Assembly (NCBI GenBank): GCA_040905465.1
Contig: JBBDRK010000029.1
Coordinates: forward strand, 30,685 to 56,799
Length of the DNA: 26,115 nt
Origin: Trueperaceae bacterium
Lineage (GTDB): Bacteria; Deinococcota; Deinococci; Deinococcales; Trueperaceae
Reading direction: 5' to 3'
Shown: positions 1,609 to 14,396 of the stretch, piece after piece
Position numbering within the stretch: the first letter of the stretch is position 1
How the letters are laid out: each line of letters opens with the position of its first letter
Notes under the pieces: generated by a model
The model's database searches: none
The model's input: only the letters and a program-made list of their open reading frames with translations
Told to the model about the DNA's origin: nothing
Position numbers and translations under genes: made by a program

Positions 1609-3435
1609 ATGTCGGCACCATCTCGAAGCGGCAGGAACCGGTCGGTGCTCATCTCGCACGCGGCTGCAGGTGCGGCGGGAGTCGGCTTGTTCCTCGCCGG
1701 CGTGATGCTGAACTTGCCGCCGCTGTGGCTCGGAGTCATGCTGGCCGGCGGGCTGACCACCGCCTCGGCGCTCTTCGGGATTGTCACCAGCTTGACGATG
1801 CTGGTCCTGGCGGTAGCGGGGCTGTGGGTGTTACCGCCGCTGCTGGGGCGCCCGATCGACGTCGTTAGGCTCGTCGGGCTGGTGGCGATAATGCTACCGG
1901 CGATGTTCGCCGGCCACGCGCTGTACCTGCGGGTCCAGGCTGCCGAACGCCGGCAGGACGAAGAGGCTCGCCGTACCAGGCTCCTCACCGAAGCCGCCAT
2001 GGTGATGCAGAAACTGGACAACACCGACGCCCTCTTTCGCACTATCCTCCGGATGCTGGCCGACATCCTCGACTTCACACACGCACAGGTTTTCGCGCCA
2101 CGTGACGGCACCATGGTGTTGATCGCCAGCCACCGCTGGGAGGTTCCGGCGGAGTTCCACCTGCCGCTGGCGTCGGTGGTGGGCGAAGCGGCCGAATCGA
2201 AGATGCCGCAGTACGTGCCGGACGTGCGCAATCACCCTACCTACTTCGCGGCCCCCAACGCCCCCAGGACGCTTTCCGAGCTCGCCATTCCGTTGATGCT
2301 CGAGGAGCGCGTCGCGGCGGTCCTCAACATCGAGCACGCCTCAGCAAACGCATTCGGCAGCGAGGAGCTGAGGGCACTGGTGGCCTTCGGCAAGATGACC
2401 GAGGAGGCGCTGGAACGCGCCAGCCTCCACACCCAATTAGTGGAGATGCTAGAGGTGATACGCAACCTCGCGCAATCCGACGACCCCACGGTCTTGTTCG
2501 AGGAGACCGTGAAGTCGGCGATTCGGCTGATACCCGGCGCCGAGTCGGGTTCGCTCATGCTCTACGACAAGGGCGACTTCCGCTTCGTGGCGGCCGAGGG
2601 TTACGACCGCCAGTCGCTCCGTACCATCTCCGGCGTCGGCCACACCACGCAGTTGAAGTGGTACGCCGGCTCCGAGGAGGACTTCGTGAAAGGGGTGCCG
2701 CGGCTGCTGATCGGTGAAGCGATCAGCGAGGCGAGCATGGCCGGGCTGGATACCGACGAGCAGCGCAAGACGATATTGCACGCCGGCCGGGTCCAGGAGC
2801 TCACCGCCACCATCTGCGTGCCGATCAGCTACGGCGGGACGGTCCTCGGCATGCTGAACATCGACAGCTTCGCACCGTCCAACCCGTTCGGTCCGCACGC
2901 GCTGCTGCTGGCCGAGACATATGCGCAGCAGATCGCCGTCATCATCCGGCAGACGCTATACCGCGACGCGCTCGAACAGGCTGTGGTCACCGACTCGCTC
3001 ACCGGGCTCGGCAACCGCGAAGGGTTCAACCGCCAATTGAACGTGGAGCTGGCCAGAGCCCGTCGCTACGGTCAGACCTTCAACCTGGTAATGATCGACC
3101 TCGACGGTTTCAAGTGGATTAACGACCGATTGGGTCATAGCGCCGGAGACCGGGCGCTGGTAGAGGTAAGCGGCCAGATGGAACGGGAGCGCCGCGAGGG
3201 CGACAGCATATTCCGGTGGGGCGGCGACGAGTTCGCCCTCATCCTGCCGGAGATCAACCGGGAGCAGGCCTGGCTGGTGGCCGAGCGCTACGCCGCGGCA
3301 ATCGCGCGAGTTCAACTCGAGGACTTCCCCTTGTCGGCGTCGTTCGGCATGGCCTCCTATCCCGAAGACGGCACCGATGCCGAGAGCCTGCTGCGCAAGG
3401 CGGACGACCTGATGTATCGCCGCAAGTCGACCTGA
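1609..3435 (+). CDS. Membrane-anchored GAF-GAF-GGDEF diguanylate cyclase (~608 aa)
   Basis: Hydrophobic N-terminus, two GAF domains (SELAIPLMLEERVAAVLNIEH; TICVPISYGGTVLGMLNID), DSLTGLGNR, IDLDGFKWINDRLGHSAGD, intact WGGDEF with upstream RxxD (REGD) I-site. Start moved from 1417, which overlaps ftsK, to ATG 1609. Confidence 0.93.
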   Translation: MSAPSRSGRNRSVLISHAAAGAAGVGLFLAGVMLNLPPLWLGVMLAGGLTTASALFGIVTSLTMLVLAVAGLWVLPPLLGRPIDVVRLVGLVAIMLPAMFAGHALYLRVQAAERRQDEEARRTRLLTEAAMVMQKLDNTDALFRTILRMLADILDFTHAQVFAPRDGTMVLIASHRWEVPAEFHLPLASVVGEAAESKMPQYVPDVRNHPTYFAAPNAPRTLSELAIPLMLEERVAAVLNIEHASANAFGSEELRALVAFGKMTEEALERASLHTQLVEMLEVIRNLAQSDDPTVLFEETVKSAIRLIPGAESGSLMLYDKGDFRFVAAEGYDRQSLRTISGVGHTTQLKWYAGSEEDFVKGVPRLLIGEAISEASMAGLDTDEQRKTILHAGRVQELTATICVPISYGGTVLGMLNIDSFAPSNPFGPHALLLAETYAQQIAVIIRQTLYRDALEQAVVTDSLTGLGNREGFNRQLNVELARARRYGQTFNLVMIDLDGFKWINDRLGHSAGDRALVEVSGQMERERREGDSIFRWGGDEFALILPEINREQAWLVAERYAAAIARVQLEDFPLSASFGMASYPEDGTDAESLLRKADDLMYRRKST

Positions 3436-3444
3436 GGACGGCCC

Positions 3445-3494
3445 GGGACGCCGCCCGCCCGAGCGGCGCCCCCACTCGACGCGCTTCGAAAGCG
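3445..3494. terminator. Two GC hairpins between convergent genes, possible transcript-end structures
   Basis: cgccgc 3449-3454 / gcggcg 3463-3468 flanked by ggg/ccc; cgctt 3482-3486 / aagcg 3490-3494. No U-tract. Confidence 0.35.
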
Positions 3495-3499
3495 ATCGA

Positions 3500-4744
3500 T
3501 CAGACCCGCTTGCGGTCGACCTCGCTGAGCTCTACGACCGCCTCTTCCCGATATGCCGGACGGTTCAGCAGGTAATCTTCGACGACGATCTTCACCAGCG
3601 CCACGAACGGAACGGCCAGCAACGCCCCTACCAGCCCCAGCAGCCCGATCCCCGCCATGATCGCCAGCAGCACCGTGAGCGGATGAAGGTTGGTGCTGCG
3701 CGAGAGGATCAATGGAGCGAGCACGTTGCCTTCGAGCTGGTTGGCGATTACGAACACCACGACGGCCAGGCCGGCGGTGAGGGGACTGACGGTGAAACCG
3801 AGCAGGACTGCCGGCACTACCCCAATGATCGGACCGAGATACGGAACGAGATTGAAGATGGCCGCCAGGAAGCTGATCGCCAGCGCCAGCGGCACGCCGA
3901 CAATGCTCAGTCCGATCCAGACGAGCACCCCCAGCACAAGCGTGATCAGCAACTGGCCGCGCATGTAACCGCCCACCGCGCCGTCCGCCTTGCGGACCAG
4001 GTCGCTGTAGAGCGGGCGCCACCGCACCGGCACCAGCCGGTAGGCGTTGTTGGTGAAGCGCGGAAAGTCGTAGAGGAAGTAAGCCGACGCCAGCAGGATC
4101 AGAATCACCTGCAGGGTGGTCGAGATGATGTTGGTCGCGCCCGACACGAGCAGCGACGGGCCGCCCGTAACCAGTTGCTCGAGCAGGCCGGTAAGCGCTT
4201 CGACGGCCCGGGCCAGCACGCTCGCCAGCTGCTCCTGCACCTGCACCGCGAGCTGGTCGTTCTGTTCGAGGCCGAGGCGCTCCGACAGGAATCCGGGCAG
4301 TCCTTCCGCCACGCCGGCGAGCCAGACCTGGAAACCGGTGAGGGCGGCGCCGACGTTCTCCAGCGCTACCGGTATTCGCCTCACGAACTCGCCTAGCTGC
4401 GTCACAACCTGGCCGATCAGGATCGAGCCAAGCACGAACACCTGCAGCAGGACCAGATAGATGAGCACCACAGCGAGCCCGCGCGCCACCCGCAGCCGCC
4501 CGATGCGCAGTCGGCTCAGGGCCTCGACCAGAGGGTTGAGGATGTAAGCGATTATGAATCCGATGATCGCGACTTGCAGTGCAAAGGCGTAACCGCGTCG
4601 CAAGGTTATGAGCAGCCAGACCGCGAAGACCGTAAGCGCCAGGTACGCCAGCGCGCGCACCCAGGGGTTGCGCCAGACGATCTCGAGAGCGGTCACCTGC
4701 TGCTCGGAGTACGGATCGTGGGGAGGGGGCCGATCGTCGTTCAT
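3500..4744 (-). CDS. AI-2E (PerM/UPF0118) family transporter
   Basis: Multi-TM protein with IIAYILNPLV, GGYMRGQL, FNLVPYLGPIIG, NQLEGNVLAP, LHPLTVLLAIMAG and GLVGALLAVP family motifs. Confidence 0.93.
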   Translation of the reverse strand: MNDDRPPPHDPYSEQQVTALEIVWRNPWVRALAYLALTVFAVWLLITLRRGYAFALQVAIIGFIIAYILNPLVEALSRLRIGRLRVARGLAVVLIYLVLLQVFVLGSILIGQVVTQLGEFVRRIPVALENVGAALTGFQVWLAGVAEGLPGFLSERLGLEQNDQLAVQVQEQLASVLARAVEALTGLLEQLVTGGPSLLVSGATNIISTTLQVILILLASAYFLYDFPRFTNNAYRLVPVRWRPLYSDLVRKADGAVGGYMRGQLLITLVLGVLVWIGLSIVGVPLALAISFLAAIFNLVPYLGPIIGVVPAVLLGFTVSPLTAGLAVVVFVIANQLEGNVLAPLILSRSTNLHPLTVLLAIMAGIGLLGLVGALLAVPFVALVKIVVEDYLLNRPAYREEAVVELSEVDRKRV

Positions 4745-4748
4745 TCTG

Positions 4749-5480
4749 TCACGGACCCGTGAACACGGTTGCCGCGGCGATGTGCACCTCGTCCGCGTCC
4801 ATACCCTCTCCGAAGTAGCCGTCGTCGCCCCAGATCTCGAAGTGCAGCCTGGATCCGCGCCTGGTGCCGGCGACTCCCTCGTCGGTGCCGGAGTTGCCTA
4901 CGAAGCCGATCACCGTACCGCGTTGCACAGGTTGCCCCTCGCTCAGGCCGTCTCGTATCGCGGACAGATGGGCGTAGCGCAAGAGGCGGCCGTCTTCGAT
5001 CTCGAGCCACACCTGGCGACCGCGCAGGCGGTCGAGCTCGTCGTCGTCCGCACCATCGGCCACCGCCGACATCAACCGCTGCCACTCACCCTCGTCGGCC
5101 TCACGAAAGGCGTTGTCGACGCGCACCAAGGTGCCGGCGGCGGCAGCGATCACCGCGGCGCCGTAGGGAACGGGCACACCCGAGTCGCCGTCGTAGAAGT
5201 CGAAGCCCTCGCTGGCGCCTTGCCGGTAGGGGCGCGGCGAGCCGGGCAGATGGGCAGGGTTGTCGGGCAGCTCGGCGCCCGGTATCGGGAACCACAGCCC
5301 GCGATCGTCGCTGCTCTGAGCAGCGGCGGGCGGTTGGGCAGCGGGCGGCGCGTCGGACCGTTGCCGCAGCTCCCGCAGCTCCGATCTCTGGCCGGCCAGC
5401 AATACGGTCACGACGACGCCATAGACGACGGCAGCCAGTAAGAGATACCAGCCGGGCCTGAGGGTGCGCCAGAATGCCAT
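4749..5480 (-). CDS. Membrane-anchored M23/LytM-domain protein with degenerate active site (~243 aa)
   Basis: N-terminal TM helix, short coiled coil, then LytM-type motifs (VIAAAAGTLV, YAHLS, GQPVQRGTVIGFVGNSG, LHFEI). HxxxD reads SEGFD and HxH reads RLH. Start ATG 5480 is 8 nt after an extended -10 TGaTAGACT (5489-5494). Confidence 0.85.
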   Translation of the reverse strand: MAFWRTLRPGWYLLLAAVVYGVVVTVLLAGQRSELRELRQRSDAPPAAQPPAAAQSSDDRGLWFPIPGAELPDNPAHLPGSPRPYRQGASEGFDFYDGDSGVPVPYGAAVIAAAAGTLVRVDNAFREADEGEWQRLMSAVADGADDDELDRLRGRQVWLEIEDGRLLRYAHLSAIRDGLSEGQPVQRGTVIGFVGNSGTDEGVAGTRRGSRLHFEIWGDDGYFGEGMDADEVHIAAATVFTGP

Positions 5481-5554
5481 TCGCGTCGAGTCTATCATCA
5501 CGTGACCAGCGCGGCATATCTGGCCAGGGCACGCAAGATTGGGCTGAGCGCCGG

Positions 5555-6673
5555 TCAGCCGGCACGCTCCAGCAGGTACAGACCGGGCCTGTGGCCTCCA
5601 TGGAAGACGCGCACCGTATTGGCTGCCCGCCAGCCGGACTGGCCGGCGACAGCCGCTTCGAACAAACGCAGCTCGTGGGTTATCGCCACCATTCGGGCAC
5701 CTTTCGACGCCACCCGCGCCGACTCGGTCAGGAACCGCGGGTAGAGTTCGGAATTGTCGCGGTGCCTGCCGACGGCGTCCCCCCACGGCAGATCTGCGCT
5801 CAGCCGGTCGAAGCTTGCCGACTCGAACGGCAGGGCGGTCGCGTCGGCCGGCAGCAGCTCGGCCCTGGCAGCCAGGCCCGCGCCCGCGAGATTCGCCTTG
5901 GCGCAAGCCAGCGCCTCCGGATCGAGGTCCACGCCGACTCCTCGCGACCACCTGCCGGCAAGCCCTCGTTCGATGAGCAGGGTGCCGGAACCGCACATCA
6001 GGTTCAGGTAGCGGTCGGTGGCCGCGGTGCGCAGCATGTCATGGGCGGCGACGGCAACCGTGGCGTTGAGGCCGCCCGGCCGGTTGCAGACGCGCCAGTC
6101 GCGCGCCGACAGCGGGCGGGGCGTGAGCCGCAGCAGCACCTCCCAGCCGCCTCGCGAACCGGGCCTGACCCGCAGCAGCAGATCCCCATCGGCGCGTTCC
6201 GGCAAGCCGCTGGCCGCGCTCAGTGCCTCGGCGAGCCGTCGGAACGCCGGCGAGTCGCTGCCGGCGGCGCCGAAGCGGAATCCCTGGTATGCCCCGGCGG
6301 GCGCCTCCCGGCGCACGTCCCCGACGGCCGCAATGAGCCTGCTCAGGTGGGCATGGCCCAACAGCGCCTTGGGACGGGGCAGGTCGAAGCCGATCACGAC
6401 GAATACCGCCACACAGCGACGCAGGCTCAGGAGTTCGCGCCGCGACCCGTGGTGCTCGAACAGCAGCGCGTCGTCGCTCTTCCGCAACAGCTTCGCCCCC
6501 AGCGCCCGCAACTCGGCGGTGGCGAACGGAGCCATTCCGGGCAACACCTCGGCTTCGTAGATCTTCTGAGAAGCGGTCGGCTGCGTCTCGGCTTTCTTGG
6601 TCGACGGCTTGCTGGGCGGCTCGCCGGATCGCTGGGAAACGCGGCCACCGGGTCGCTTGGGACGTCGGGCCAC
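5555..6673 (-). CDS. TrmN/Trm14-like (UPF0020) SAM-dependent RNA methyltransferase
   Basis: RLTPRPLSARDWR, GGLNATVA, motif I YLNLMCGSGTLLIE, GVDLD, motif IV-like ADLPWG. TACGGT lies 5 nt before the GTG start. Confidence 0.8.
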   Translation of the reverse strand: MARRPKRPGGRVSQRSGEPPSKPSTKKAETQPTASQKIYEAEVLPGMAPFATAELRALGAKLLRKSDDALLFEHHGSRRELLSLRRCVAVFVVIGFDLPRPKALLGHAHLSRLIAAVGDVRREAPAGAYQGFRFGAAGSDSPAFRRLAEALSAASGLPERADGDLLLRVRPGSRGGWEVLLRLTPRPLSARDWRVCNRPGGLNATVAVAAHDMLRTAATDRYLNLMCGSGTLLIERGLAGRWSRGVGVDLDPEALACAKANLAGAGLAARAELLPADATALPFESASFDRLSADLPWGDAVGRHRDNSELYPRFLTESARVASKGARMVAITHELRLFEAAVAGQSGWRAANTVRVFHGGHRPGLYLLERAG

Positions 6674-6734: not shown

Positions 6735-7766
6735 TCAGAACCGGTAGCCGATGCCGGCCCGGCCGAGCAAGCCCAGCTCCACGCCGTTACGAAAGACCGA
6801 CTCGGGACCGAGCTCGAGGTAGATCAGTCCGGGCTCGCTGAGGCTGCGGCCCAGCGGCACTTCGATGCCGGCAAACGCGAGAATTCCGCCGGCGGCACCG
6901 GCCGGCCCGCCGCGGAGCAGCGGTCCGGCACCGAGGTAGGGCAGTACCGGAGCGTCGACTCCGACGGGAAATGAGTACAGCAGTTGCAGCTCGAGCCCGA
7001 AGCCAGCCCCCATGCTGAAACCGCCGCCGCCACGCAGGTGAAGCGACGGCACGAGGTCACGAATACCTACGTGCACAGTAGCCGGCAGCGGATAGCCGGC
7101 TGCTATTCCGATCCACCACTCCAGCGGGCGGCGCTGCTGAGGAGAAGCCACCCCGAACCTATCCTGTGGCGCGCCTCCGGCAGGGGACGCAGCAGGGGCG
7201 GCGGCCGGCACGCGGCGTCCCGGCGACGCCTCGGGCAGCGGCGGCACTGTGTCGGCCGCCGATACCGGAATCCCCTCGTGGCTCTCCGGATCGAGCGGAA
7301 AGCGCTCCTCACCTACCGACTCGTTGAGGTATGCCTCGATATCGGCGACCCGCCGGCCCAACGCCTGCACGCTCGCCACCGACGCCGCGTTCTCCAACGC
7401 CGACTCGACGCGTCTTACCCGGCCCAGCATCTCCGCAACTCGCTCCACGTCGGACCAGAATGCAGGATCGAGGGCGAGGTCGGCCAGCGAACCGCCTATC
7501 AGGTCGACCAGCCTGGCCGCCACCACCGCCAGCTCATAGCGTGTCGCGGGGCGGTCGCCGCGAAAGTTCTCGTCCGGGTAACCGGTGAGCACTCCGAGAA
7601 CCGACAGCCGTCTGATGGCGTCTACGGCCCAGTGCCGCTCGGGTACGTCGAGATAGCGTTCCGGCGCCAATTGCGTTGCTCCGGTGGGCAGGGGCTGCGC
7701 CAGCGCAGCACCCATGAGGAGGGCCGCCGCGAGGGGGGCCAGGAATGAAGATGGTTGGTGACGCAT
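6735..7766 (-). CDS. SLH-domain outer-membrane protein (signal peptide, SLH, coiled coil, Pro/Ala linker, small beta-barrel)
   Basis: Signal peptide ending ALA; SLH motif YLDVPERHWAVDAIRRL...GYPDENFRGDRPATRYELAV; amphipathic beta strands at the C-terminus ending GIGYRF; SD GGGAG before the ATG. Confidence 0.85.
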   Translation of the reverse strand: MRHQPSSFLAPLAAALLMGAALAQPLPTGATQLAPERYLDVPERHWAVDAIRRLSVLGVLTGYPDENFRGDRPATRYELAVVAARLVDLIGGSLADLALDPAFWSDVERVAEMLGRVRRVESALENAASVASVQALGRRVADIEAYLNESVGEERFPLDPESHEGIPVSAADTVPPLPEASPGRRVPAAAPAASPAGGAPQDRFGVASPQQRRPLEWWIGIAAGYPLPATVHVGIRDLVPSLHLRGGGGFSMGAGFGLELQLLYSFPVGVDAPVLPYLGAGPLLRGGPAGAAGGILAFAGIEVPLGRSLSEPGLIYLELGPESVFRNGVELGLLGRAGIGYRF

Positions 7767-7942: not shown

Positions 7943-9052
7943 GTGCCGGCAGCGCTCTACCTACACGTCCCGTTCTGCCCCCAGATCTGCCCGTATTGCG
8001 ACTTCCACAAGATGCTGCGCAACGAGGGCCTGGTCGAGGCCTACCTGAACCGGCTGGAGCAGGAGATCGCGGAGACGGCCGTCCGCTATCCCGGCCCACT
8101 CGACACCATCTACCTGGGCGGAGGCACCCCGTCGGGCCTGAGCGATGCCGAACTGGACCGCATCGTTTCCGCCATCGACGCCGCCTGGGGCTTCCCGGCG
8201 CGCCGGGAGACCACGTTGGAAGCCGACCCGCTGACGTTCGATCCGGCGCGCCTGCGCTTCTTCCGAGAGCTCGGTTTCTCACGCCTCTCGATAGGCCTGC
8301 AATCGACGCAGGACCGGGTGTTGAAGCGCCTGGGCCGCCGCCACACCGCCGGCGAGGGCCTGGAAGCGCTCGGCTGGGCGATGGAGGCGGGATTCGAGGC
8401 ATCGGCCGATCTGATCACGGCGGTCGACGGCCAGGACTCCGCCGCCGACCTGCGTGCCCTTGCCGTTACCGGCGTGCCCCACGTCAGCGTATACACCCTC
8501 ACCATCGAGCCCTATACGCCGTTCGCGCTGCGCGGCGTGACGGTCGACGAGGAGCGCGCCGCGGACGATTACGAGCTGGCCGCGGCGATGCTGGGCGAGC
8601 ACGGCCTCGAGCGATACGAGGTCTCGTCGCACGCCCGGCCCGGCCACGAGTCGCGTCACAACCAGGTCTACTGGCACGGCCGGCATTTCCTGGGGATCGG
8701 TCCCTCGGCGGCCGGATTCCTGCCGTCGCTGGACGGGCCGGGCGAACGCGTCAGCAACCAGCAGCTCAAGGGCTGGCTCGACGGCGCGGAACCGCGACGC
8801 GAGCGGCTGACGGCGAACGACTACGCGCTCGAGCGGCTGATGACCGGCCTGCGCACCAGGCTCGGGGTCGACCTGTCGGACGTGCTCGAGCGAAGCGGGG
8901 TAGACGTCGCGGAGCGCTTCGCCGGCACGCTGGAACCCCTCTACCGTCAGCGACTGCTCGAGCTGGAGCAGGGCCGCCTGAGGGCGACCGATGAAGGCCT
9001 CATCCGCCTCGACGCCATGTTGCGCCGGTTCTTCGCGGCCCAGCCGAGCTGA
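7943..9052 (+). CDS. hemW: Radical SAM heme chaperone HemW (HemN-like)
   Basis: LYLHVPFCPQICPYCDF (CxxxCxxC), TIYLGGGTPS, YEVSS, SRHNQVYW, GIGPSA. It lacks the N-terminal extension of true HemN. Confidence 0.9.
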   Translation: MPAALYLHVPFCPQICPYCDFHKMLRNEGLVEAYLNRLEQEIAETAVRYPGPLDTIYLGGGTPSGLSDAELDRIVSAIDAAWGFPARRETTLEADPLTFDPARLRFFRELGFSRLSIGLQSTQDRVLKRLGRRHTAGEGLEALGWAMEAGFEASADLITAVDGQDSAADLRALAVTGVPHVSVYTLTIEPYTPFALRGVTVDEERAADDYELAAAMLGEHGLERYEVSSHARPGHESRHNQVYWHGRHFLGIGPSAAGFLPSLDGPGERVSNQQLKGWLDGAEPRRERLTANDYALERLMTGLRTRLGVDLSDVLERSGVDVAERFAGTLEPLYRQRLLELEQGRLRATDEGLIRLDAMLRRFFAAQPS

Positions 9053-9142
9053 GGAGAATCACCTGCCCGACTCTTATCCGGGCCCGGTCGGTGCCGGTCT
9101 GGCCCGCCGGCGACGCCTGTGGGCCAGGCGGCGAGAAACGCT

Positions 9143-9398
9143 GAGGCGCCGAAATCGCAGAGGTGCCTCGCCTTCCCTGCGGCGCGTTAGAACATCGTGA
9201 CCACGAAAGTTACATCCAGACCGATTTTCGCCTGGGCATTTAGCGGTGCCTTACCGGCATCCGACCCGAAAGTCGGCTACCGCCAGTGAAAAGCCCAGCC
9301 GCAAAGGCCGAAATCGCCTCCGTTTTGCAAGCTTTGTTACCACAGTGTTCCAACTGACCCAGGGAATTGCGACGGACCTCTCCCGCGAAAGCCGGCTC
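9143..9398 (-). ncRNA. Putative long rod-shaped structured RNA (unassigned family) or structured 3' UTR of gdhB
   Basis: Near-constant-register pairing from 9155/9388 inward to a three-way junction at 9241-9285. The A-C oppositions on the plus strand become G-U pairs on the minus strand. Boundaries are approximate. Confidence 0.55.
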
Positions 9399-9406
9399 GA
9401 GCGAGG

Positions 9407-12400
9407 CTACCCCCTCGGCAACTCGGCCTGGGACAGTAACCGGGCCAGCACGCCGGCACTGGCCAGCCCCAGCGCCTCCTCGTCGCGTATCTCGGCGAGC
9501 GCCTGGTCGAAGCGGCGCAGCAGGTTGGGATAGCGCCGCAGGTACTCCTCCGGATCGAGGTCCCCGTCGGCCGCCAGCGCCCTCAGATAGCCCTCGGTCA
9601 GGTCGCGCTGGACCCGCCTCAACTCCATGATCAGGCCTCCCAACGCGATCTTTTCCCACTTGCTCGTGGCCTGATGCGCCGACAGGCTGTCGCGAAGCCA
9701 GGCGAGTGAGAGACGCTCGCCCAGCGCGTAGAACCGCCGGGCCGCTTCGTCGAGCTTCACGCCGGTTCGCTGTGCAACGTCGATCACGCCGACGCTGGTA
9801 GGCAGGTAGTCGAAGGCGGCGACTTCGTCCGCCAGGTCCTTGGCGAACCCGTCCTGGCCCGCGCGTTTGCGCTGGCGCTGGTAGTGGCGCCGCTCGGAGG
9901 GCGGCAGGAAGCCGTGCAGCTTGCGCCGCAGGGTAGCCAGCGGCTCCCGATAGGTGGCCACGAACTCCGCTATCGGGGTGCGGGTCAGGTCGGAAAGGAG
10001 GATCCAGTTGACCATCCCCTCCACCGCCTCGACCAGCTCCGACAGCGCCCGGTATTGCGCGACCGCCGCCACCTCGTTGTCGAGCGCGAACATCTGCGTC
10101 AGGAACTCTTCGACCTCCAGGATCTCCAGGGCGATCAGTGCCGCCCGAATCACCTCTACCGGAGTCGCCCCGGTGTCGCGAATGGTCCTGTGCACGAAGG
10201 TGATACCCAGGATGTCAACGACGGTATTGGTGAACTGGGTGGCGATAATCTCGCGCCGTAGTGGGTGGCCCTCGATCCCTTGCCGAAAGCGTTCGGCCAG
10301 CTGCGCCGGGAAGTAACCGACGAGATAGTGCCGGAAGTGGGCCTCGTCGGGAAAGTCGGTCTCCAGCAGGCGGCGGTAGAGGCCCATCTTGGCGTACGCC
10401 AACAGCACCGCCAGCTCCGGCCGGGTGTAGCCCACGCCGGTGCGACGCCGTTCGGTCAGCTGCCGGGCCGACGGCATCGCCTCGACCTCGAGATCCAGGC
10501 CGCCGCGCTCCGCCAGGTAGGTCTGCAAGGACTCGAACAGGAGCGGATCGTGTCGGCTGCGCTCCTCGGCCAGCGACAGCGCCAGCGACTGGCGGTAGTT
10601 GTCGGCCAACACCAGGGCGCTGACCTCGTCGGTCATCTCCCGTAGCAACCGGTTGCGTTGGACGGCGGACAGCTCGCCCGATGCCAGGGCGGGCCGAAGC
10701 AGGATCTTGATGTTCACCTCGTGATCGGATAGGTCTACCCCGGCGGCGTTGTCGATTGCGTCGGTGTTGATCCGCCCGCCGGCCAACGCATATTCCACTC
10801 GCGCCCGTTGGGTGAGGCCGAGGTTTCCCCCCTCCCCCACGACCCGGCAGCGAAGCTCGTCGGCCGCCACCCGCACCAGATCGTTGGCGGTATCGCCGAC
10901 ATCGCGGTCGCTCTCGGCCGAGCTCCTCACATACGTGCCGATCCCGCCATTCCACAACAGGTCCACCTGTGCGCGCAGGATCGCCTTCACCAGCTCCTGG
11001 CCGCTAAGTACATCGGCCTCGCTGGCGAGCAGCTCCTTGGCCTCCGCGGTCAGCGGGATCGCCTTGGCGCTGCGGTCGAAAACGCCACCGCCCGGCGATA
11101 TCAGAGAGGTGTCGTAATCCCGCCAGGTCGAGCGCGGCATCTCGAAGAGCCGGCGCCGCTCGACGAAGCTGCTGGCCGCGTCCGGCTTCGGATCGAGGAA
11201 GATGTGCATGTGATTGAAGGCCGCCACCAGCCTGATTCGGTCGCTGTAGAGCATCCCGTTGCCGAAGACGTCTCCCGACATGTCGCCGATGCCGGCCACC
11301 GTGAACTCGTCGCGCCCTACGTCCAGGCCCATCTCGCGGAAGTGACGTGCAACGCACTCCCAGGCGCCGCGGGCGGTTATGCCGATCGCCTTGTGGTCGT
11401 AACCCTGCGAGCCGCCCGACGCGAAGGCGTCGCCCAGCCAGAAGTCGTACTCCGCGGCGGTCTCGTTCGCCAGGTCGGAGAAGGTGGCGGTACCCTTGTC
11501 GGCCGCGACCACGAGGTACGGATCGCTCTCGTCATAGATCACCAGTCCCTGCGGCGGTACCGACTCTCCGGCGACCATGTTGTCGGTCAGGTCGAGGAGG
11601 CCGCCGATGTAGGTGCGGTACTGCTGACGCACGTAACGCGCCAGCTCCTCGCGCTCGGCGGGAGCGTTCTTCAGCACGAATCCGCCCTTCGAGCCGACCG
11701 GGACGATGACAGCGTTCTTGGTCATCTGAGTCTTCATCAAGCCGAGCACTTCGGTCCGGAAGTCGTCGGGCCGGTCGGACCAGCGGATCCCCCCGCGCGC
11801 CACCTTGCCTCCGCGCAGGTGCACGCCCTCGACGCCGGGAGCTGAGACTCCGATCTCGAACAGCGGTCGCGGTTCCGGCATCAGCGTCACCTGCTGCGAG
11901 GAGATCTTGAATGAGATGTGCGGCTTGCCCTGGAAGAAGTTGGTCCGGACGGTAGCTTCCATCAGATTGAACAGGCCGCGAAGCGCCTGGTCCTCGGGCA
12001 GCGAGGAGACCTCCGCCAGATGCCCGTCGAACGTGTCGCGGGCCGCCTCCAGTTGCGCTCGCCTGTCCCCCTCGACCACTGGATCGAAGCGAACCCGGAA
12101 GTAGTCGAAGAGCGCCGCCGCCGCCCGCGGGTGGGTGATAAGCGTGTCGTAGAGGAAGCGGCGGCTGGTCACCGCCGAGAGCTGCCCGTAGTACATCTGG
12201 TACGCGCGGAGCAAGGAAACCTGGCGGATGTCGAGACCGGCGCCGAGAACCAGCCGGTTCAGCCGGTCGCTCTCGGCCACGCCGGCGAGCAGCTCCTCCA
12301 GCGCGCCAATCAGAAGCTCGCCCTGGGCCCTGACGTCGAGCGGACTGCCGCTGAGATCCTGCACCCGGAAGACGTCTATGCCCCGGTCGCCGTCCTCCAG

Positions 12401-14248
12401 TCGCGCCCAGTAGGAGATCTGCTCGAGCACTCGCAGGCCGGCGTTCTCGAGCACCGGCAGGACGTCGGAAAGCACCAGTGTGCGCCGGTGGTGATAGATA
12501 CGAAGCAGGCTCGCCGCCTCGCCGCGCGGCTCGGCCGGCGGGGCCAGAAGGTCGACTCGGAAGGGGGAATCGCCCAGCCGCTCGATGTTGTCGATGTCGA
12601 GCAGCGCGGCGCTCGGGCTGATGTCGGCCCGATAGCGTTCATCGAACGCCGTCAGATACCGCTCCGCCAGTCTGCGTCCAACCAGTTGGCCGTGACGCGA
12701 CAGCAGGCGCGCTTGAAGTTCGTCGACCCAGGTGCGCGCCAGTTCGGCCACCTCGTGCTCGAGGCCGCGAGCGTCGACGTCGCCAGCCGTGAGCGCAGTG
12801 GTGAAGAAGAAGTGGAAGCGCACCTGCTCCTCGTCCTCGCCCATGGCCAGTTGGTAGTCGACGTGAGTGGCCTGCAGCGCCGAGGCCAGGAAGCGCTGCA
12901 CCCGCCGTCGCACCTCGGCGTTGAAACGCTCGCGCGGCATGATCACCATCAGCGCCAGCCCGCGTGACAGCGGATCCGCTCGCAGCGTGAGTCGCACCTC
13001 GCGTTCCTGCTCGAGCGCCATGATCGTGCGGATGTCTCGGTGGAGCTGCTCGGCGTCCGACCAGAACAGCTCCTCTCGCGGCATGTTGTTGAAGATGGTG
13101 GTGATCTGCTTGTAATCGTGCGACTCGGGGATCGCCTGGTCGATCTCGAGGACCCGCCGCAACCGGCGGCGGAGGATGGGAATCTCGTCTACCGGCGCCG
13201 ACAACGCCTTGGAGGTGAACAGGCCGAGGAAGCGCTGCTCGCCGGTAACGAGGCCGCTTCTGGCGCTCTCCTTCTCCGCTGCCCCGTCCTCCTCCCCGGC
13301 GCCGCCAACGCCCAGCATCTTGACCCCGATATAGTCCATCCGCGCCGGGCGGTGCACGGTGGCCTCGGCGTTGGTCTTGGTAACTGTGAACACCCTCCCG
13401 CCGATGATCCGCTCGCGCAATCCCGCCGGGATCTCGTCGAGCGGCTTCGGTTCCAGGTAGCCGCTCTCCTCGACGCGTGACAGGATCCCCAGTCCCGACT
13501 CGGGCGCCACCTGCAGATAGCGCTTGCCGTTCGAGCTGCCGATCTGGTATTCGCGGTAGCCGAGGAAGACGAAATTGTCGTCGTCGAGCCAGTCCATGAA
13601 GTTGGCGTACTCGGCGAGCTCCTCGTCGCGCTCGCTGATGTCCAACTCCCGGTCGCGCTTCTGAAGGGCCAGCAGGTAGTCGCTCACCCGGCGCGCCTGC
13701 TCCCGCATCGGCTGGTAATCGCTGGTTGCGAGGATCACGTCTCCCAGCACCCGCCTCACCGAATCAGTCAGGTCGGTAAGGCGCGACTCCTGTTCCTCGC
13801 GCTCCAGGAACCAGATCTCGAAGGCTTCCTGGCGGCCCTCGCGCTGCCGCCCCGCCAACTCGACGATGGCGCCGCCGTCGTCTCGCCTGACGCTGTAGAT
13901 GGGGTGCAGCAGGTGATCGAGGCCGAACTCGCGGCGCCGCAGTTCGGCGCGGACAGAGTCCACGATGAACGGCCGGTCCCGCAGGCACAGGCGCAGCACG
14001 GTATAGGGCGCCTCCCAACCGTCAGCTTCGAACGTCGGGTTGAACACGTCGACGCTCATCTCCTGATGAGCGAGCGAGTCGAGGAATGCGAAACCTTCGG
14101 CGGCCATCGCGCTGAGACTCTCGGGGTCGAACGCTTCGAGGAACCGGGGATCGGACTTCTCGAAGAGGATCTCGGCAAAGGCGGTTACCAGAGGATCGCC
14201 ACCGGACTTCTCGATCCGGGTTCGCACCTGTTTCAGGGTGGCGGGCAT
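9407..14248 (-). CDS. gdhB: Large-type NAD-specific glutamate dehydrogenase (~1613 aa)
   Basis: EGVHLRGGKVARGGIRWSDR, EVLGLMKTQMTKNAVIVPVGSKGGF, DPYLVVAADKGTATFSDLAN, GIGDMSGDVFGNGML, GEGGNLGLTQ, INTDAIDNAAGVDLSDHEVNIKI. Start placed at ATG 14248; the ORF-track GTG 14320 overlaps a likely -10 (TATAGT, 14319-14324). Confidence 0.95.
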   Translation of the reverse strand: MPATLKQVRTRIEKSGGDPLVTAFAEILFEKSDPRFLEAFDPESLSAMAAEGFAFLDSLAHQEMSVDVFNPTFEADGWEAPYTVLRLCLRDRPFIVDSVRAELRRREFGLDHLLHPIYSVRRDDGGAIVELAGRQREGRQEAFEIWFLEREEQESRLTDLTDSVRRVLGDVILATSDYQPMREQARRVSDYLLALQKRDRELDISERDEELAEYANFMDWLDDDNFVFLGYREYQIGSSNGKRYLQVAPESGLGILSRVEESGYLEPKPLDEIPAGLRERIIGGRVFTVTKTNAEATVHRPARMDYIGVKMLGVGGAGEEDGAAEKESARSGLVTGEQRFLGLFTSKALSAPVDEIPILRRRLRRVLEIDQAIPESHDYKQITTIFNNMPREELFWSDAEQLHRDIRTIMALEQEREVRLTLRADPLSRGLALMVIMPRERFNAEVRRRVQRFLASALQATHVDYQLAMGEDEEQVRFHFFFTTALTAGDVDARGLEHEVAELARTWVDELQARLLSRHGQLVGRRLAERYLTAFDERYRADISPSAALLDIDNIERLGDSPFRVDLLAPPAEPRGEAASLLRIYHHRRTLVLSDVLPVLENAGLRVLEQISYWARLEDGDRGIDVFRVQDLSGSPLDVRAQGELLIGALEELLAGVAESDRLNRLVLGAGLDIRQVSLLRAYQMYYGQLSAVTSRRFLYDTLITHPRAAAALFDYFRVRFDPVVEGDRRAQLEAARDTFDGHLAEVSSLPEDQALRGLFNLMEATVRTNFFQGKPHISFKISSQQVTLMPEPRPLFEIGVSAPGVEGVHLRGGKVARGGIRWSDRPDDFRTEVLGLMKTQMTKNAVIVPVGSKGGFVLKNAPAEREELARYVRQQYRTYIGGLLDLTDNMVAGESVPPQGLVIYDESDPYLVVAADKGTATFSDLANETAAEYDFWLGDAFASGGSQGYDHKAIGITARGAWECVARHFREMGLDVGRDEFTVAGIGDMSGDVFGNGMLYSDRIRLVAAFNHMHIFLDPKPDAASSFVERRRLFEMPRSTWRDYDTSLISPGGGVFDRSAKAIPLTAEAKELLASEADVLSGQELVKAILRAQVDLLWNGGIGTYVRSSAESDRDVGDTANDLVRVAADELRCRVVGEGGNLGLTQRARVEYALAGGRINTDAIDNAAGVDLSDHEVNIKILLRPALASGELSAVQRNRLLREMTDEVSALVLADNYRQSLALSLAEERSRHDPLLFESLQTYLAERGGLDLEVEAMPSARQLTERRRTGVGYTRPELAVLLAYAKMGLYRRLLETDFPDEAHFRHYLVGYFPAQLAERFRQGIEGHPLRREIIATQFTNTVVDILGITFVHRTIRDTGATPVEVIRAALIALEILEVEEFLTQMFALDNEVAAVAQYRALSELVEAVEGMVNWILLSDLTRTPIAEFVATYREPLATLRRKLHGFLPPSERRHYQRQRKRAGQDGFAKDLADEVAAFDYLPTSVGVIDVAQRTGVKLDEAARRFYALGERLSLAWLRDSLSAHQATSKWEKIALGGLIMELRRVQRDLTEGYLRALAADGDLDPEEYLRRYPNLLRRFDQALAEIRDEEALGLASAGVLARLLSQAELPRG

Positions 14249-14396
14249 ACTATCATCTGCCTTTCGCGTGCACGAGGCGACTGCGCCTCCGGCCGCGGGT
14301 ATTCGGGCTATGCGGGTCACTATAACGAATCACCGGCTACCCTACCGAGTGCCCTGGTCCAGTGACTCGCCGACGGGCACACGGAGTTACGGAACG

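What the first reader, a model, noticed from the sequence alone, without database searches (positions are those of the whole stretch)
9091..9459. Unannotated long rod-like RNA structure with a Y-shaped tip between hemW and gdhB
Seen in sequence: the 354-bp gap between the convergent hemW and gdhB genes is largely one imperfect inverted repeat in near-constant register. Paired segments are tcgc 9155/gcga 9385, agaggt 9159/acctct 9376, tcgc 9168/gcga 9369, ttccctg 9173/cagggaa 9360, gttagaaca 9186/tgttccaac 9346, cgtgaccac 9196/gttaccaca 9336, aaag 9206/cttt 9332, ttaca 9210/tgcaa 9326, cgattt 9222/aaatcg 9311, ctgggc 9232/gcccag 9293 and tagcggt 9241/accgcca 9279. It is capped by two hairpins (minus strand ccgact-TTCG-ggtcgg and tgcc-GGTAA-ggca). 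By manual count about nine oppositions are A-C on the plus strand (G-U on minus) against about two G-T, which fits selection on a minus-strand RNA helix better than a DNA palindrome. The core is more AT-rich than the flanking genes, so chance GC pairing is an unlikely explanation. Weaker outer pairs (gtgccgg 9091/9453, ctggcccg 9099/9441, ccaggc 9124/9426) reach into the last gdhB codons. A TAnnnT hexamer (TAGCCT) overlaps the gdhB stop and would start an RNA near 9397. Inference: an unassigned ~250-nt sRNA (an RNA-polymerase-binding rod like 6S/Ms1, or a double-strand RNase substrate) or a large structured 3' UTR. I cannot match it to SRP, tmRNA, RNase P RNA or a riboswitch.
Basis: partly seen in the sequence, partly recalled or inferred. 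Interest (0 to 1): 0.85.

Follow-up and report, generated by a model that had tools for sequence, protein, structure and literature searches.

The report
Decaying foldback repeat downstream of gdhB
The long hairpin between gdhB and hemW is real, but it is one of three diverged copies of a small inserted foldback repeat found only in this Trueperaceae genome, so it looks like an ordinary mobile-element relic rather than a new housekeeping RNA.

Summary
Window 9155-9388 is a long imperfect inverted repeat. It folds better than shuffled controls, and better on the minus strand (z -3.9) than on the plus strand (z -3.0).

The 6S/Ms1-like sRNA interpretation does not hold. There is no Rfam match, no large central bubble and no promoter-like site.

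A covariance model of the rod found two more full-length copies in the same genome, on contig C32 and elsewhere on C29. The copies are 192-194 nt long, differ at 39-48% of positions, and share inverted ends (TTCCCTGG...CCAGGGAA).

No copy was found in 127 other family genomes, 150 class genomes, 80 hemW loci or viral contigs. The only metagenome match was a chance one.

Same-genus relatives have short, empty spacers at two of the three sites. The third copy lies in a toxin-antitoxin islet that they lack.

Homology begins at the element's edge, so no promoter is shared. Arms are no more Watson-Crick complementary within a copy than between copies. The strand bias is not family-wide.

Best reading: a MITE-like foldback repeat, probably read through as a gdhB 3' UTR hairpin. 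Only the window copy shows a G.U excess on the gdhB-sense strand.

The parts
9407..14320 (-). gdhB, large NAD-specific glutamate dehydrogenase (1637 aa). The element lies 41 nt downstream of its stop codon, on its sense strand.
   Evidence: ORF list. Pfam Bac_GDH_CD E 3.3e-240 plus seven accessory GDH domains.
7943..9052 (+). hemW-like radical SAM gene, convergent with gdhB.
   Evidence: Pfam Radical_SAM E 5.9e-24 and HemN_C E 1.8e-16.
9173..9366 (-). Conserved 194-nt core of the foldback element, from TTCCCTGG to CAGGGAA on the minus strand. It is homologous to two other copies at G000 C32:15447-15638(+) and C29:144067-144259(+).
   Evidence: CM and nhmmer hits, motif positions, alignments.
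9161..9367 (-). Full extent of detectable homology with the other copies. It starts 1-2 nt before the 5' TTCC and runs 12-16 nt past the 3' CAGGGAA.
   Evidence: Pairwise local alignments.
9155..9388 (-). Whole rod of this copy, including the outer stem AGAGGU/ACCUCU and UCGC/GCGA.
   Evidence: MFE and centroid folds; sequence read.
9346..9366 (-). 5' inverted end (TTCCCTGGGTCAGTTGGAACA on the minus strand).
   Evidence: Fuzzy motif search located it at C29:40030-40050; alignment.
9173..9193 (-). 3' inverted end (GTTCTAACGCGCCGCAGGGAA on the minus strand). This is the best conserved block of the family.
   Evidence: Motif scan found it exactly three times in the genome; alignment.
9261..9276 (-). 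Apical hairpin CCGACU-UUCG-GGUCGG.
   Evidence: Present in the RNA MFE and in the three-copy consensus structure, columns 96-110.
9247..9259 (-). Second tip hairpin UGCC-GGUAA-GGCA. It is an alternative pairing and is not conserved.
   Evidence: Formed in the DNA-parameter fold but not in the RNA MFE. Unpaired in the consensus.
9099..9127 (.). GC-rich hairpin (ctggccc...gggccag) outside the element, with no T-run. It may be the original spacer or terminator hairpin shared by the convergent genes.
   Evidence: Self-complement blastn hit at gap positions 280-308. Same-genus G002 has only such a hairpin in its 54-nt spacer.

Best explanation
Window 9155-9388 is one copy of a small, lineage-restricted foldback (palindromic, MITE-like) repeat. 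It was inserted into the short spacer between the convergent gdhB and hemW genes of a Trueperaceae metagenome-assembled genome.

Shown:
- The genome holds three full-length copies of 192-194 nt with shared inverted ends.
- Same-genus relatives have short spacers without it at two of the three sites, and the third copy sits in a toxin-antitoxin islet that they lack.
- No copy was found in any other genome searched.

Inferred:
- The ancestor was a more perfect palindrome that spread to a few sites, moved by a transposase that is not in this assembly.
- The copies have since diverged largely neutrally.
- The window copy lies 41 nt after the gdhB stop, on the gdhB sense strand, and has no promoter of its own. 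It is therefore most likely transcribed by read-through and forms an interrupted RNA hairpin of about 85-90 pairs at the 3' end of the gdhB mRNA.
- There it would act passively, as a 3' exonuclease barrier or as a double-strand RNase target, as reported for other bacterial MITEs.
- The G.U excess on the gdhB-sense strand of this one copy may reflect mild selection for that hairpin, or strand-biased C-to-T mutation.
For: 1. Real hairpin: z -3.90 on minus and -2.96 on plus; self reverse-complement E 1.1e-7.

2. Three copies. A single-sequence CM found C32:15434-15645 (E 0.018) and C29:144052-144267 (E 0.04). nhmmer from the three-copy alignment gives E 2.9e-69, 1.4e-66 and 5.4e-64, and the next forward hit is at E 0.57. 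The 3' motif AACGCG..CAGGGAA occurs exactly 3 times in the genome.

3. Non-coding. Stops occur in nearly all frames, and differences fall evenly by codon position (35/28/33, 26/24/29, 25/26/28).

4. Insertion polymorphism.
- The gdhB-hemW gap is 354 nt here. In 48 of the 49 loci with convergent gdhB (of 80 hemW loci) it is -160 to 236 nt, and in one it is 1068 nt because of a different insert.
- Same-genus G002 has 54 nt with only a terminator hairpin.
- The HAD-to-next-gene spacer is 33 nt in G002 and about 350 nt here.
- The third copy lies in about 3 kb of extra DNA with HepT/MNT and a BrnT-like gene.

5. Restricted distribution.
- R2 gave nothing better than E 0.04 in 127 other family genomes.
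- It gave nothing at E <= 1 in G001 or G002 with lax filters.
- One chance-level hit appeared in 150 other class genomes.
- None appeared in 80 hemW loci.
- The two-motif pattern gave 0 hits in genome contigs and viral contigs, and 1 chance hit in metagenome contigs.

6. No shared promoter. Homology starts 0-2 nt before the core, and there are 0 promoter-like sites at all three loci.

7. Neutral-looking arms.
- Left arm against the reverse complement of its own right arm: 57/88, 59/86, 57/84 identical. Against the other copies' right arms: 55-60 of 78-86.
- Pairs of one copy's MFE that changed on both sides in another copy stay paired in 29 of 74 cases, which is the level of the slid controls (30-54%).

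8. The element is more AT-rich than its surroundings. The MITE review PMC10969869 (passages read) lists AT-richness and stable stem-loop transcripts as typical of MITEs. It also reports RNase III cleavage of Correia-containing transcripts and 3'-end effects of ERIC.

9. Precedent in the phylum. D. radiodurans has 295 small noncoding repeats that are absent from D. geothermalis (PMC1978522, passages read).
Against: - Only three copies, with no cognate transposase. A search of the genome for either 21-nt end with up to 5 mismatches found only the three copies and scattered 4- and 5-mismatch singletons.
- No target-site duplication could be identified.
- Lengths are almost identical (192-194 nt) despite 39-48% divergence. 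That is more orderly than simple decay would predict.
- On the RNAalifold consensus, 87.3% of cells pair against 80.5 +/- 1.7 in shuffles (0 of 500), and 10 pairs change on both sides (3 of 500). That structure was derived from the same three sequences, so this test is biased towards it.
- In the window copy, the sense-strand duplex of its own two arms is -79.3 kcal/mol. The other 8 sense-strand arm combinations give -50.6 to -63.2, and its own antisense duplex gives -60.8. It has 11 G.U against about 2-3 A.C oppositions. This could mean RNA-level selection on this copy.
- No transcript data exist, so read-through is inferred.
Confidence: 0.6

Rival explanations
1. A genuine structured RNA family: three paralogous rod RNAs of about 210-245 nt, cis-acting or processed from read-through transcripts. 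An example would be a double-strand RNase substrate that sets mRNA 3' ends or yields small RNAs. The hairpin itself would be under selection.
For: - Length is kept at 192-194 nt at 39-48% divergence, with no ORF.
- The consensus structure has 87.3% of cells paired and 10 pairs changed on both sides.
- The window copy's own arms pair about 19 kcal/mol better on the gdhB-sense strand than any cross combination, with 11 G.U pairs.
- The copies downstream of gdhB and of the HAD gene (2 of 3) lie in sense downstream of a co-directional gene. The third is in sense upstream of a BrnT-like gene.
Against: - No shared promoter and no shared terminator tail.
- The strand preference is not family-wide. 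C32 gives z -1.76 sense against -3.53 antisense; C29b gives -3.65 against -3.76.
- Arms are no more Watson-Crick complementary within copies than between them.
- Changed pairs are kept only at background rate when one copy's structure is read in another.
- It was found in no other genome.
- There is no Rfam match.
Confidence: 0.2
2. A DNA-level site: a cruciform-forming or protein-bound inverted repeat. It could be the recombination or integration scar of small mobile cassettes such as toxin-antitoxin modules that target intergenic spacers.
For: - Across the family the hairpin is roughly strand-symmetric.
- One copy lies between two toxin-antitoxin operons in an islet. A fragment resembling the 3' end lies just upstream of it.
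- A 3'-end-like stretch lies upstream of an AbrB-like gene on C53. The hit is weak (E 1.7) and the gene's identity is by eye.
- Same-genus G001 carries a different insert with an HTH ORF at the same gdhB-hemW spacer.
Against: - Two of the three copies have no cassette beside them.
- No recombinase or transposase is linked to any copy among the neighbouring ORFs I scanned.
- The window copy folds much worse on the plus strand with DNA parameters (z -1.64).
- By my reading from memory of the integron attC core sites (RYYYAAC / GTTRRRY), the ends do not fit, and the length exceeds the attC range.
Confidence: 0.1
3. An RNA-polymerase-binding rod RNA of the 6S or Ms1 kind, or a bacterial Y RNA.
For: It is rod-like and about 220 nt long. 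No RF00013 (6S) match at E <= 1 was found anywhere in this genome, so the lineage's 6S is unidentified.
Against: - No internal loop exceeds 4 nt on a side, so there is no open-promoter-like bubble.
- Nothing better than two chance-level hits (E > 4) to unrelated sRNA families appeared in 8950-9550.
- It is absent from same-genus genomes.
- It is present in three diverged copies at insertion sites.
- No TROVE/Ro protein is encoded in the genome.
- The RF00013 control rang in only 5 of 14 reference genomes, so the missing 6S hit is weak evidence either way.
Confidence: 0.03
4. A chance inverted repeat or an assembly artefact.
For: The genome is GC-rich and is a metagenome assembly.
Against: - 0 of 200 shuffles fold as well.
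- The self reverse-complement match has E 1.1e-7.
- Two homologous copies lie elsewhere.
- The repeat is imperfect, unlike an assembly palindrome.
- A 2627-nt Logan contig of run X1 spans 8900-9600 with 0 differences, though it may come from the same data.
Confidence: 0.02

Closest known systems
Bacterial MITEs with whole-length hairpins (ERIC, Correia elements, Coxiella QMITE2)
   Same: - Size of 100-300 bp, inverted ends, intergenic sites often just after genes.
- More AT-rich than the host genome.
- Transcripts fold into long stable stem-loops.
- Presence or absence differs between close relatives.
- Copy number can be as low as 1 per genome.
(PMC10969869, passages read; here.)
   Different: Only three copies, which are strongly diverged (39-48%). 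No target-site duplication is visible. No related insertion sequence was found in this assembly. There is no sequence similarity to any record in the plasmid or phage collections beyond one 43-nt chance-level match.
Small noncoding repeats (SNRs) of Deinococcus radiodurans
   Same: Same phylum. They are short intergenic non-coding repeats confined to one species: 295 copies in D. radiodurans and none in D. geothermalis (PMC1978522, passages read).
   Different: SNRs are described there as mosaic and numerous. This family has three copies and a simple foldback shape. I did not compare sequences with SNRs.
Rickettsia palindromic elements (recalled, not read here)
   Same: Old, diverged palindromic insertions that still fold as hairpins and are no longer visibly mobile.
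   Different: They are often inserted in frame inside genes. Here all three copies are intergenic.
6S RNA (RF00013) and Ms1
   Same: Rod-like shape and a length of about 200 nt.
   Different: No central bubble, no Rfam match, no conservation in the genus, three inserted copies.
REP/BIME extragenic palindromes
   Same: Extragenic palindromes found after genes. They are said to affect mRNA stability and termination (abstract of PMC3733652, search listing only).
   Different: REPs are 20-40 bp and occur in high copy number (same abstract). This element is about 210-245 bp in three copies.

Membership tests
MITE / foldback non-autonomous element | Small size (tens to a few hundred bp) and non-coding | tested here: met
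   Core of 192-194 nt and rod of up to about 234 nt. No conserved ORF and no 3-periodicity.
MITE / foldback non-autonomous element | Terminal inverted repeats shared by copies | tested here: met
   TTCCCTGG(4 nt)GTTAGAAC-like 5' end and its imperfect complement at the 3' end in all 3 copies.
MITE / foldback non-autonomous element | Target-site duplication flanking the ends | tested here: inconclusive
   No direct repeat longer than 3 nt next to the rod ends, and the ends themselves are not sharply defined. The review notes that direct repeats wane with age.
MITE / foldback non-autonomous element | Several dispersed copies | tested here: met
   3 full copies on 2 contigs, plus two possible end fragments. 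This copy number is low for the class.
MITE / foldback non-autonomous element | Insertion polymorphism against close relatives | tested here: met
   Spacers without the element at 2 of 3 sites in same-genus G002. The third copy is inside an islet absent from G001 and G002.
MITE / foldback non-autonomous element | Cognate autonomous element with the same ends | tested here: not met
   No further paired ends within 5 mismatches of 21 in the 95%-complete assembly. Insertion sequences are often missing from metagenome assemblies, and other genomes could not be searched for this.
6S RNA (RF00013) | Match to the covariance model | tested here: not met
   0 gathering-level hits in the window. No 6S hit at E <= 10 in 8950-9550. 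No hit at E <= 1 in the genome.
6S RNA (RF00013) | Large central bubble that mimics an open promoter | tested here: not met
   The largest internal loop in the MFE has 4 nt on a side.
6S RNA (RF00013) | Conserved single-copy housekeeping gene across relatives | tested here: not met
   Not found in 127 other family genomes. Three copies in this one.
Bacterial Y RNA | Ro/Rsr (TROVE) protein encoded in the genome | tested here: not met
   PF05731 gave 0 matches in the genome. The control rang in D. radiodurans.
Intrinsic terminator | GC-rich hairpin followed by a T-run | tested here: not met
   The only terminator-like site is internal (9312-9294, minus strand), and shuffles give 0.4 such sites on average. 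There is no T-run after the rod.
Integron attC site | RYYYAAC / GTTRRRY core sites, 57-141 bp, next to cassettes | tested here: not met
   By eye on the alignment, the GTTAGAA / TCTAAC-like blocks do not fit the core consensus, and the length is about 200 nt. The consensus is recalled from memory, not from a call.

The most novel reading that the evidence does not exclude
The foldback element has been taken over as a functional RNA module. The window copy would be kept as an interrupted double-stranded RNA of about 90 pairs at the end of the gdhB mRNA. It would be maintained by selection that tolerates only G.U-forming changes on the sense strand. It would either set the stability of the glutamate dehydrogenase message or be cut by a double-strand RNase into small RNAs. 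This would be a lineage-born regulatory RNA caught early in its domestication.
Probability: 0.15. Interest if true: 0.5.

Novelty: new member of a known kind. Interest (0 to 1): 0.3.

Why it matters
This result removes a candidate 'new 6S-like RNA' and replaces it with a documented small repeat family in an uncultured Trueperaceae lineage. It is a further case, after the D. radiodurans SNRs, of species-restricted non-coding repeats in Deinococcota.

It is also a worked example of three points:
- A long hairpin with a good folding z-score and a G.U strand bias can still be a decaying foldback insertion.
- A single-sequence covariance model can uncover copies that BLAST missed.
- Covariation counted on a consensus structure derived from the same few sequences overstates the support for that structure.

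If the window copy does shape gdhB mRNA fate, it would be a small, testable case of a mobile hairpin being recruited into the 3' UTR of a central nitrogen-metabolism gene.

Tried and rejected
- **Rfam.** No gathering-level hit in the window. Only two chance-level hits (E 4.6 and 6.4) near the element. One unrelated weak hit near the other copies.
- **BLAST of the rod.** Single copy in its own genome. No hit in 60 relatives. No hit in phages. One 43-nt hit at E 7e-3 outside the rod in a Paracoccus plasmid. BLAST missed the two paralogues that the CM later found.
- **Weak CM hits.** I inspected G149 and G221 and rejected both as chance or coding sequence. The other weak hits (E 0.04-0.8, partial) I judged chance without inspecting them.
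- **Pattern scans.** The metagenome match L050 did not score with R2 and was rejected. Two viral contigs carrying the 16-mer did not score with R2.
- **Expression.** No RNA holder is listed for this stretch. The only holder is a sediment metagenome DNA run that may be the source. Its contig matches 100%, which is not independent.
- **Coding.** No conserved ORF.
- **Target-site duplication.** None found.
- **Polarising changes with a two-of-three majority.** 36-49 of the 62-78 pairs per copy were ambiguous, so the test was uninformative.
- **Supplements** of the papers were not consulted.
Full report
**What is there**

The window comes from a metagenome-assembled genome of about 3.5 Mb in 81 contigs (95% complete). 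Its closest named relatives are Trueperaceae MAGs (Deinococcota). The only sequencing run holding the stretch is a sediment metagenome.

gdhB (9407-14320, minus strand; Pfam Bac_GDH_CD E 3.3e-240) and a hemW-like radical SAM gene (7943-9052, plus strand) converge on a 354-nt gap.

**Is the hairpin more than chance?**

Yes. Folding results for 9150-9395 as RNA:

| Strand | MFE (kcal/mol) | Shuffles | z | Shuffles as good |
|---|---|---|---|---|
| minus | -110.5 | -90.0 +/- 5.25 | -3.90 | 0 of 200 |
| plus | -86.4 | -72.6 +/- 4.66 | -2.96 | 1 of 200 |

- With DNA parameters the z-scores are -3.63 on minus and -1.64 on plus.
- nhmmer aligns the gap to its own reverse complement at E 1.1e-7.
- The minus-strand MFE is a single rod of 90 pairs, 11 of them G.U. 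Small loops and bulges interrupt it every few pairs, none longer than 4 nt on a side.
- The core is more AT-rich (GC 0.575) than the flanks (0.69-0.73).
- The Y-shaped tip is only one alternative. The RNA MFE forms the UUCG hairpin but not the GGUAA one.
- About 17 of the 24 kcal/mol difference between strands is already present in the shuffled sequences. Composition therefore explains most of it: the minus strand is 55% G+T.

**It is not a known RNA**

- No Rfam family reaches its gathering score anywhere in the window.
- At E <= 10 the region gives only two chance-level hits.
- The genome has no RF00013 (6S) match at E <= 1. The same search rang in only 5 of 14 control genomes, so this says little.
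- There is no TROVE/Ro gene that would suggest a Y RNA.
- No sigma-70-like promoter was found in 8900-9600.

**It is not conserved at this locus**

- Fourteen other family genomes (15 locus rows), besides the window's own, have hemW within 900 nt downstream of gdhB. The hemW alignment there ends 15-168 nt from the gdhB stop, against 358 nt here.
- Of 80 hemW loci fetched from the species-representative collection, 49 have a convergent gdhB. By my script, the gaps are -160 to 236 nt in 48 of them and 1068 nt in one.
- That one locus (L054) is the closest relative in the set by hemW and gdhB identity. It is probably the same-genus genome G001, which carries an unrelated insert with an HTH-like ORF downstream of gdhB.
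- The other same-genus genome, G002, has a 54-nt spacer that is just a terminator hairpin.

**It is a member of a three-copy family**

BLAST saw only one copy in the genome. A covariance model built from the rod alone (R1) gave two more weak, full-length matches in the same genome: C32:15434-15645 (E 0.018) and C29:144052-144267 (E 0.04).

Aligned, the three share clear blocks:
- a 5' end, TTCCCTGGGT..GTT..AAC;
- a 3' end, TAACGCG(Y)C(.)CAGGGAA;
- several inner blocks.

nhmmer from the alignment finds exactly these three (E 2.9e-69 to 5.4e-64), and the next forward hit is at E 0.57. The 3' motif occurs three times in the genome and nowhere else.

The cores are 194, 192 and 193 nt long. They differ at 96 of 202, 79 of 203 and 79 of 202 aligned positions. 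The differences show no codon periodicity and there is no conserved ORF.

Homology begins 0-2 nt before the 5' TTCC and ends 12-16 nt after the 3' CAGGGAA. No upstream promoter can therefore be part of the unit. No promoter-like site was found at the other two loci either.

**Where the other copies sit**

- *C32 copy.* It lies between a HAD-family hydrolase gene and the next co-directional gene, in their sense orientation. In G002 these two genes are 33 nt apart. Here they are about 350 nt apart.
- *Second C29 copy.* It lies in about 3 kb of lower-GC3 DNA that G001 and G002 lack at the syntenic place. It sits between a HepT/MNT pair on one strand and a BrnT-like gene on the other.
- *Possible fragments.* A stretch 22 nt upstream of that copy resembles the family's 3' end (5 mismatches of 21; 18 of 22 by my eye). 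A similar weak stretch lies upstream of what looks like an AbrB-type antitoxin gene on C53 (nhmmer E 1.7). These fragments are not established.

**Distribution**

A three-copy model (R2) gave the following:
- In 127 other family genomes, nothing better than E 0.04. The count includes the unpublished G034, whose only match had E 0.81. I inspected the one full-length candidate, in G149, and rejected it.
- In G001 and G002 with lax filters, nothing at E <= 1.
- In 150 other genomes of the class, one chance hit, which I inspected.
- In the 80 hemW loci, none.

An exact two-motif pattern found 0 matches in the 185,579-species collection. It found 1 match in the metagenome collection, about the number expected by chance, and that match did not score with R2. 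It found 0 in viral contigs. These searches need either conserved end motifs or CM-detectable similarity. They show 'not found in those searched', not absence.

**Is the structure under selection?**

The evidence is mixed, and I give both sides.

*For selection:*
- On the RNAalifold consensus of the three copies, 87.3% of cells pair against 80.5 +/- 1.7 in shuffles (0 of 500).
- 10 of 58 pairs change on both sides (3 of 500 shuffles reach this).
- Slid controls pair at 39-46%.

That structure was derived from the same three sequences, which favours it.

*Less biased tests show no such signal:*
- Reading one copy's own MFE in another copy, 53-68% of pairs form, against 30-54% when slid.
- Pairs changed on both sides stay paired in 29 of 74 cases, which is about background.
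- The left arm of a copy is no closer to the reverse complement of its own right arm (57/88, 59/86, 57/84) than to that of another copy (55-60 of 78-86).

This is what independent neutral divergence of six arms from one more perfect ancestral palindrome would give.

*Strand preference is not family-wide:*

| Copy | z, sense | z, antisense |
|---|---|---|
| C32 | -1.76 | -3.53 |
| C29b | -3.65 | -3.76 |

*The window copy is an exception:*
- Its own two arms form a sense-strand duplex of -79.3 kcal/mol.
- The other eight sense-strand arm combinations give -50.6 to -63.2.
- Its own antisense duplex gives -60.8.
- Its Watson-Crick identity is not elevated, so the excess is all G.U. There are 11 G.U pairs against 2-3 A.C oppositions, which gives a two-sided binomial p of roughly 0.02-0.09 by my arithmetic. 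The fold used to count them favours G.U.

This could be mild selection for an RNA hairpin on the gdhB-sense strand. It could equally be strand-biased C-to-T mutation. I could not separate the two.

**Best explanation**

The element is a small foldback, MITE-like repeat that entered a few intergenic spacers in this lineage and is now diverging. The window copy is most likely read through from gdhB. Its RNA would form a long interrupted hairpin at the 3' end of the message.

Comparable elements are reported to be cut by RNase III (Correia) or to change transcript levels when placed at 3' ends (ERIC). MITEs are described as AT-rich, intergenic, hairpin-forming, and variable in copy number down to 1 per genome (PMC10969869, passages read).

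Species-restricted small non-coding repeats are already known in this phylum: 295 SNRs in D. radiodurans and none in D. geothermalis (PMC1978522, passages read).

Two things are missing for full MITE membership. There is no visible target-site duplication. No partner insertion sequence with the same ends was found in this assembly.

**What remains open**

No RNA data exist for this organism, and the only run that holds the stretch is DNA. Transcription, strand and processing are therefore all inferred. The Logan contig that matches the region exactly may derive from the same data as the assembly. With three sequences, no covariation statistic is reliable.

Searches for Truepera together with noncoding RNA and for Deinococcus together with MITE turned up nothing on such an element in their listings. 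I read only the listings, and supplements were not available.

Noticed in passing
L010 1-900 (G001, downstream of gdhB); L054 (1068-nt gdhB-hemW gap): At the same gdhB-hemW spacer, the same-genus genome carries a different AT-rich insert of about 1 kb with an HTH-like ORF. L054 is probably this same genome. The spacer looks like a recurrent landing site for small foreign DNA in this genus.
   Followed up: partly
G000 C29:142200-145750 (L136 about 2200-5750), outside the window: An islet of about 3 kb with low GC3 that is absent from G001 and G002. It carries a HepT/MNT toxin-antitoxin pair, a BrnT-like gene, a DUF421 protein and one copy of the foldback element.
   Followed up: partly
G000 C29:144024-144044 and C53:13010-13056: Two short stretches resemble the 3' end of the element. 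The first is 22 nt upstream of a full copy (5 mismatches of 21; 18 of 22 by eye). The second is upstream of an AbrB-like antitoxin gene (nhmmer E 1.7). They may be truncated copies or chance.
   Followed up: partly
whole genome G000: There is no RF00013 (6S RNA) match at E <= 1 in this 95%-complete genome. The 6S RNA of this Trueperaceae lineage, if it exists, is not detected by the Rfam model.
   Followed up: no
L012 400-475 (G021, downstream of gdhB): A head-to-tail duplicated unit of about 36 nt (ATGCCATCTCGAAGTCCAGCGGGCTGACGTAATCAA twice), together with other short direct repeats, lies in the spacer after gdhB in another family genome.
   Followed up: no
window 6735-7766 (-): A 343-aa ORF with an N-terminal S-layer homology (SLH) domain, consistent with a Deinococcota cell envelope.
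   Followed up: no
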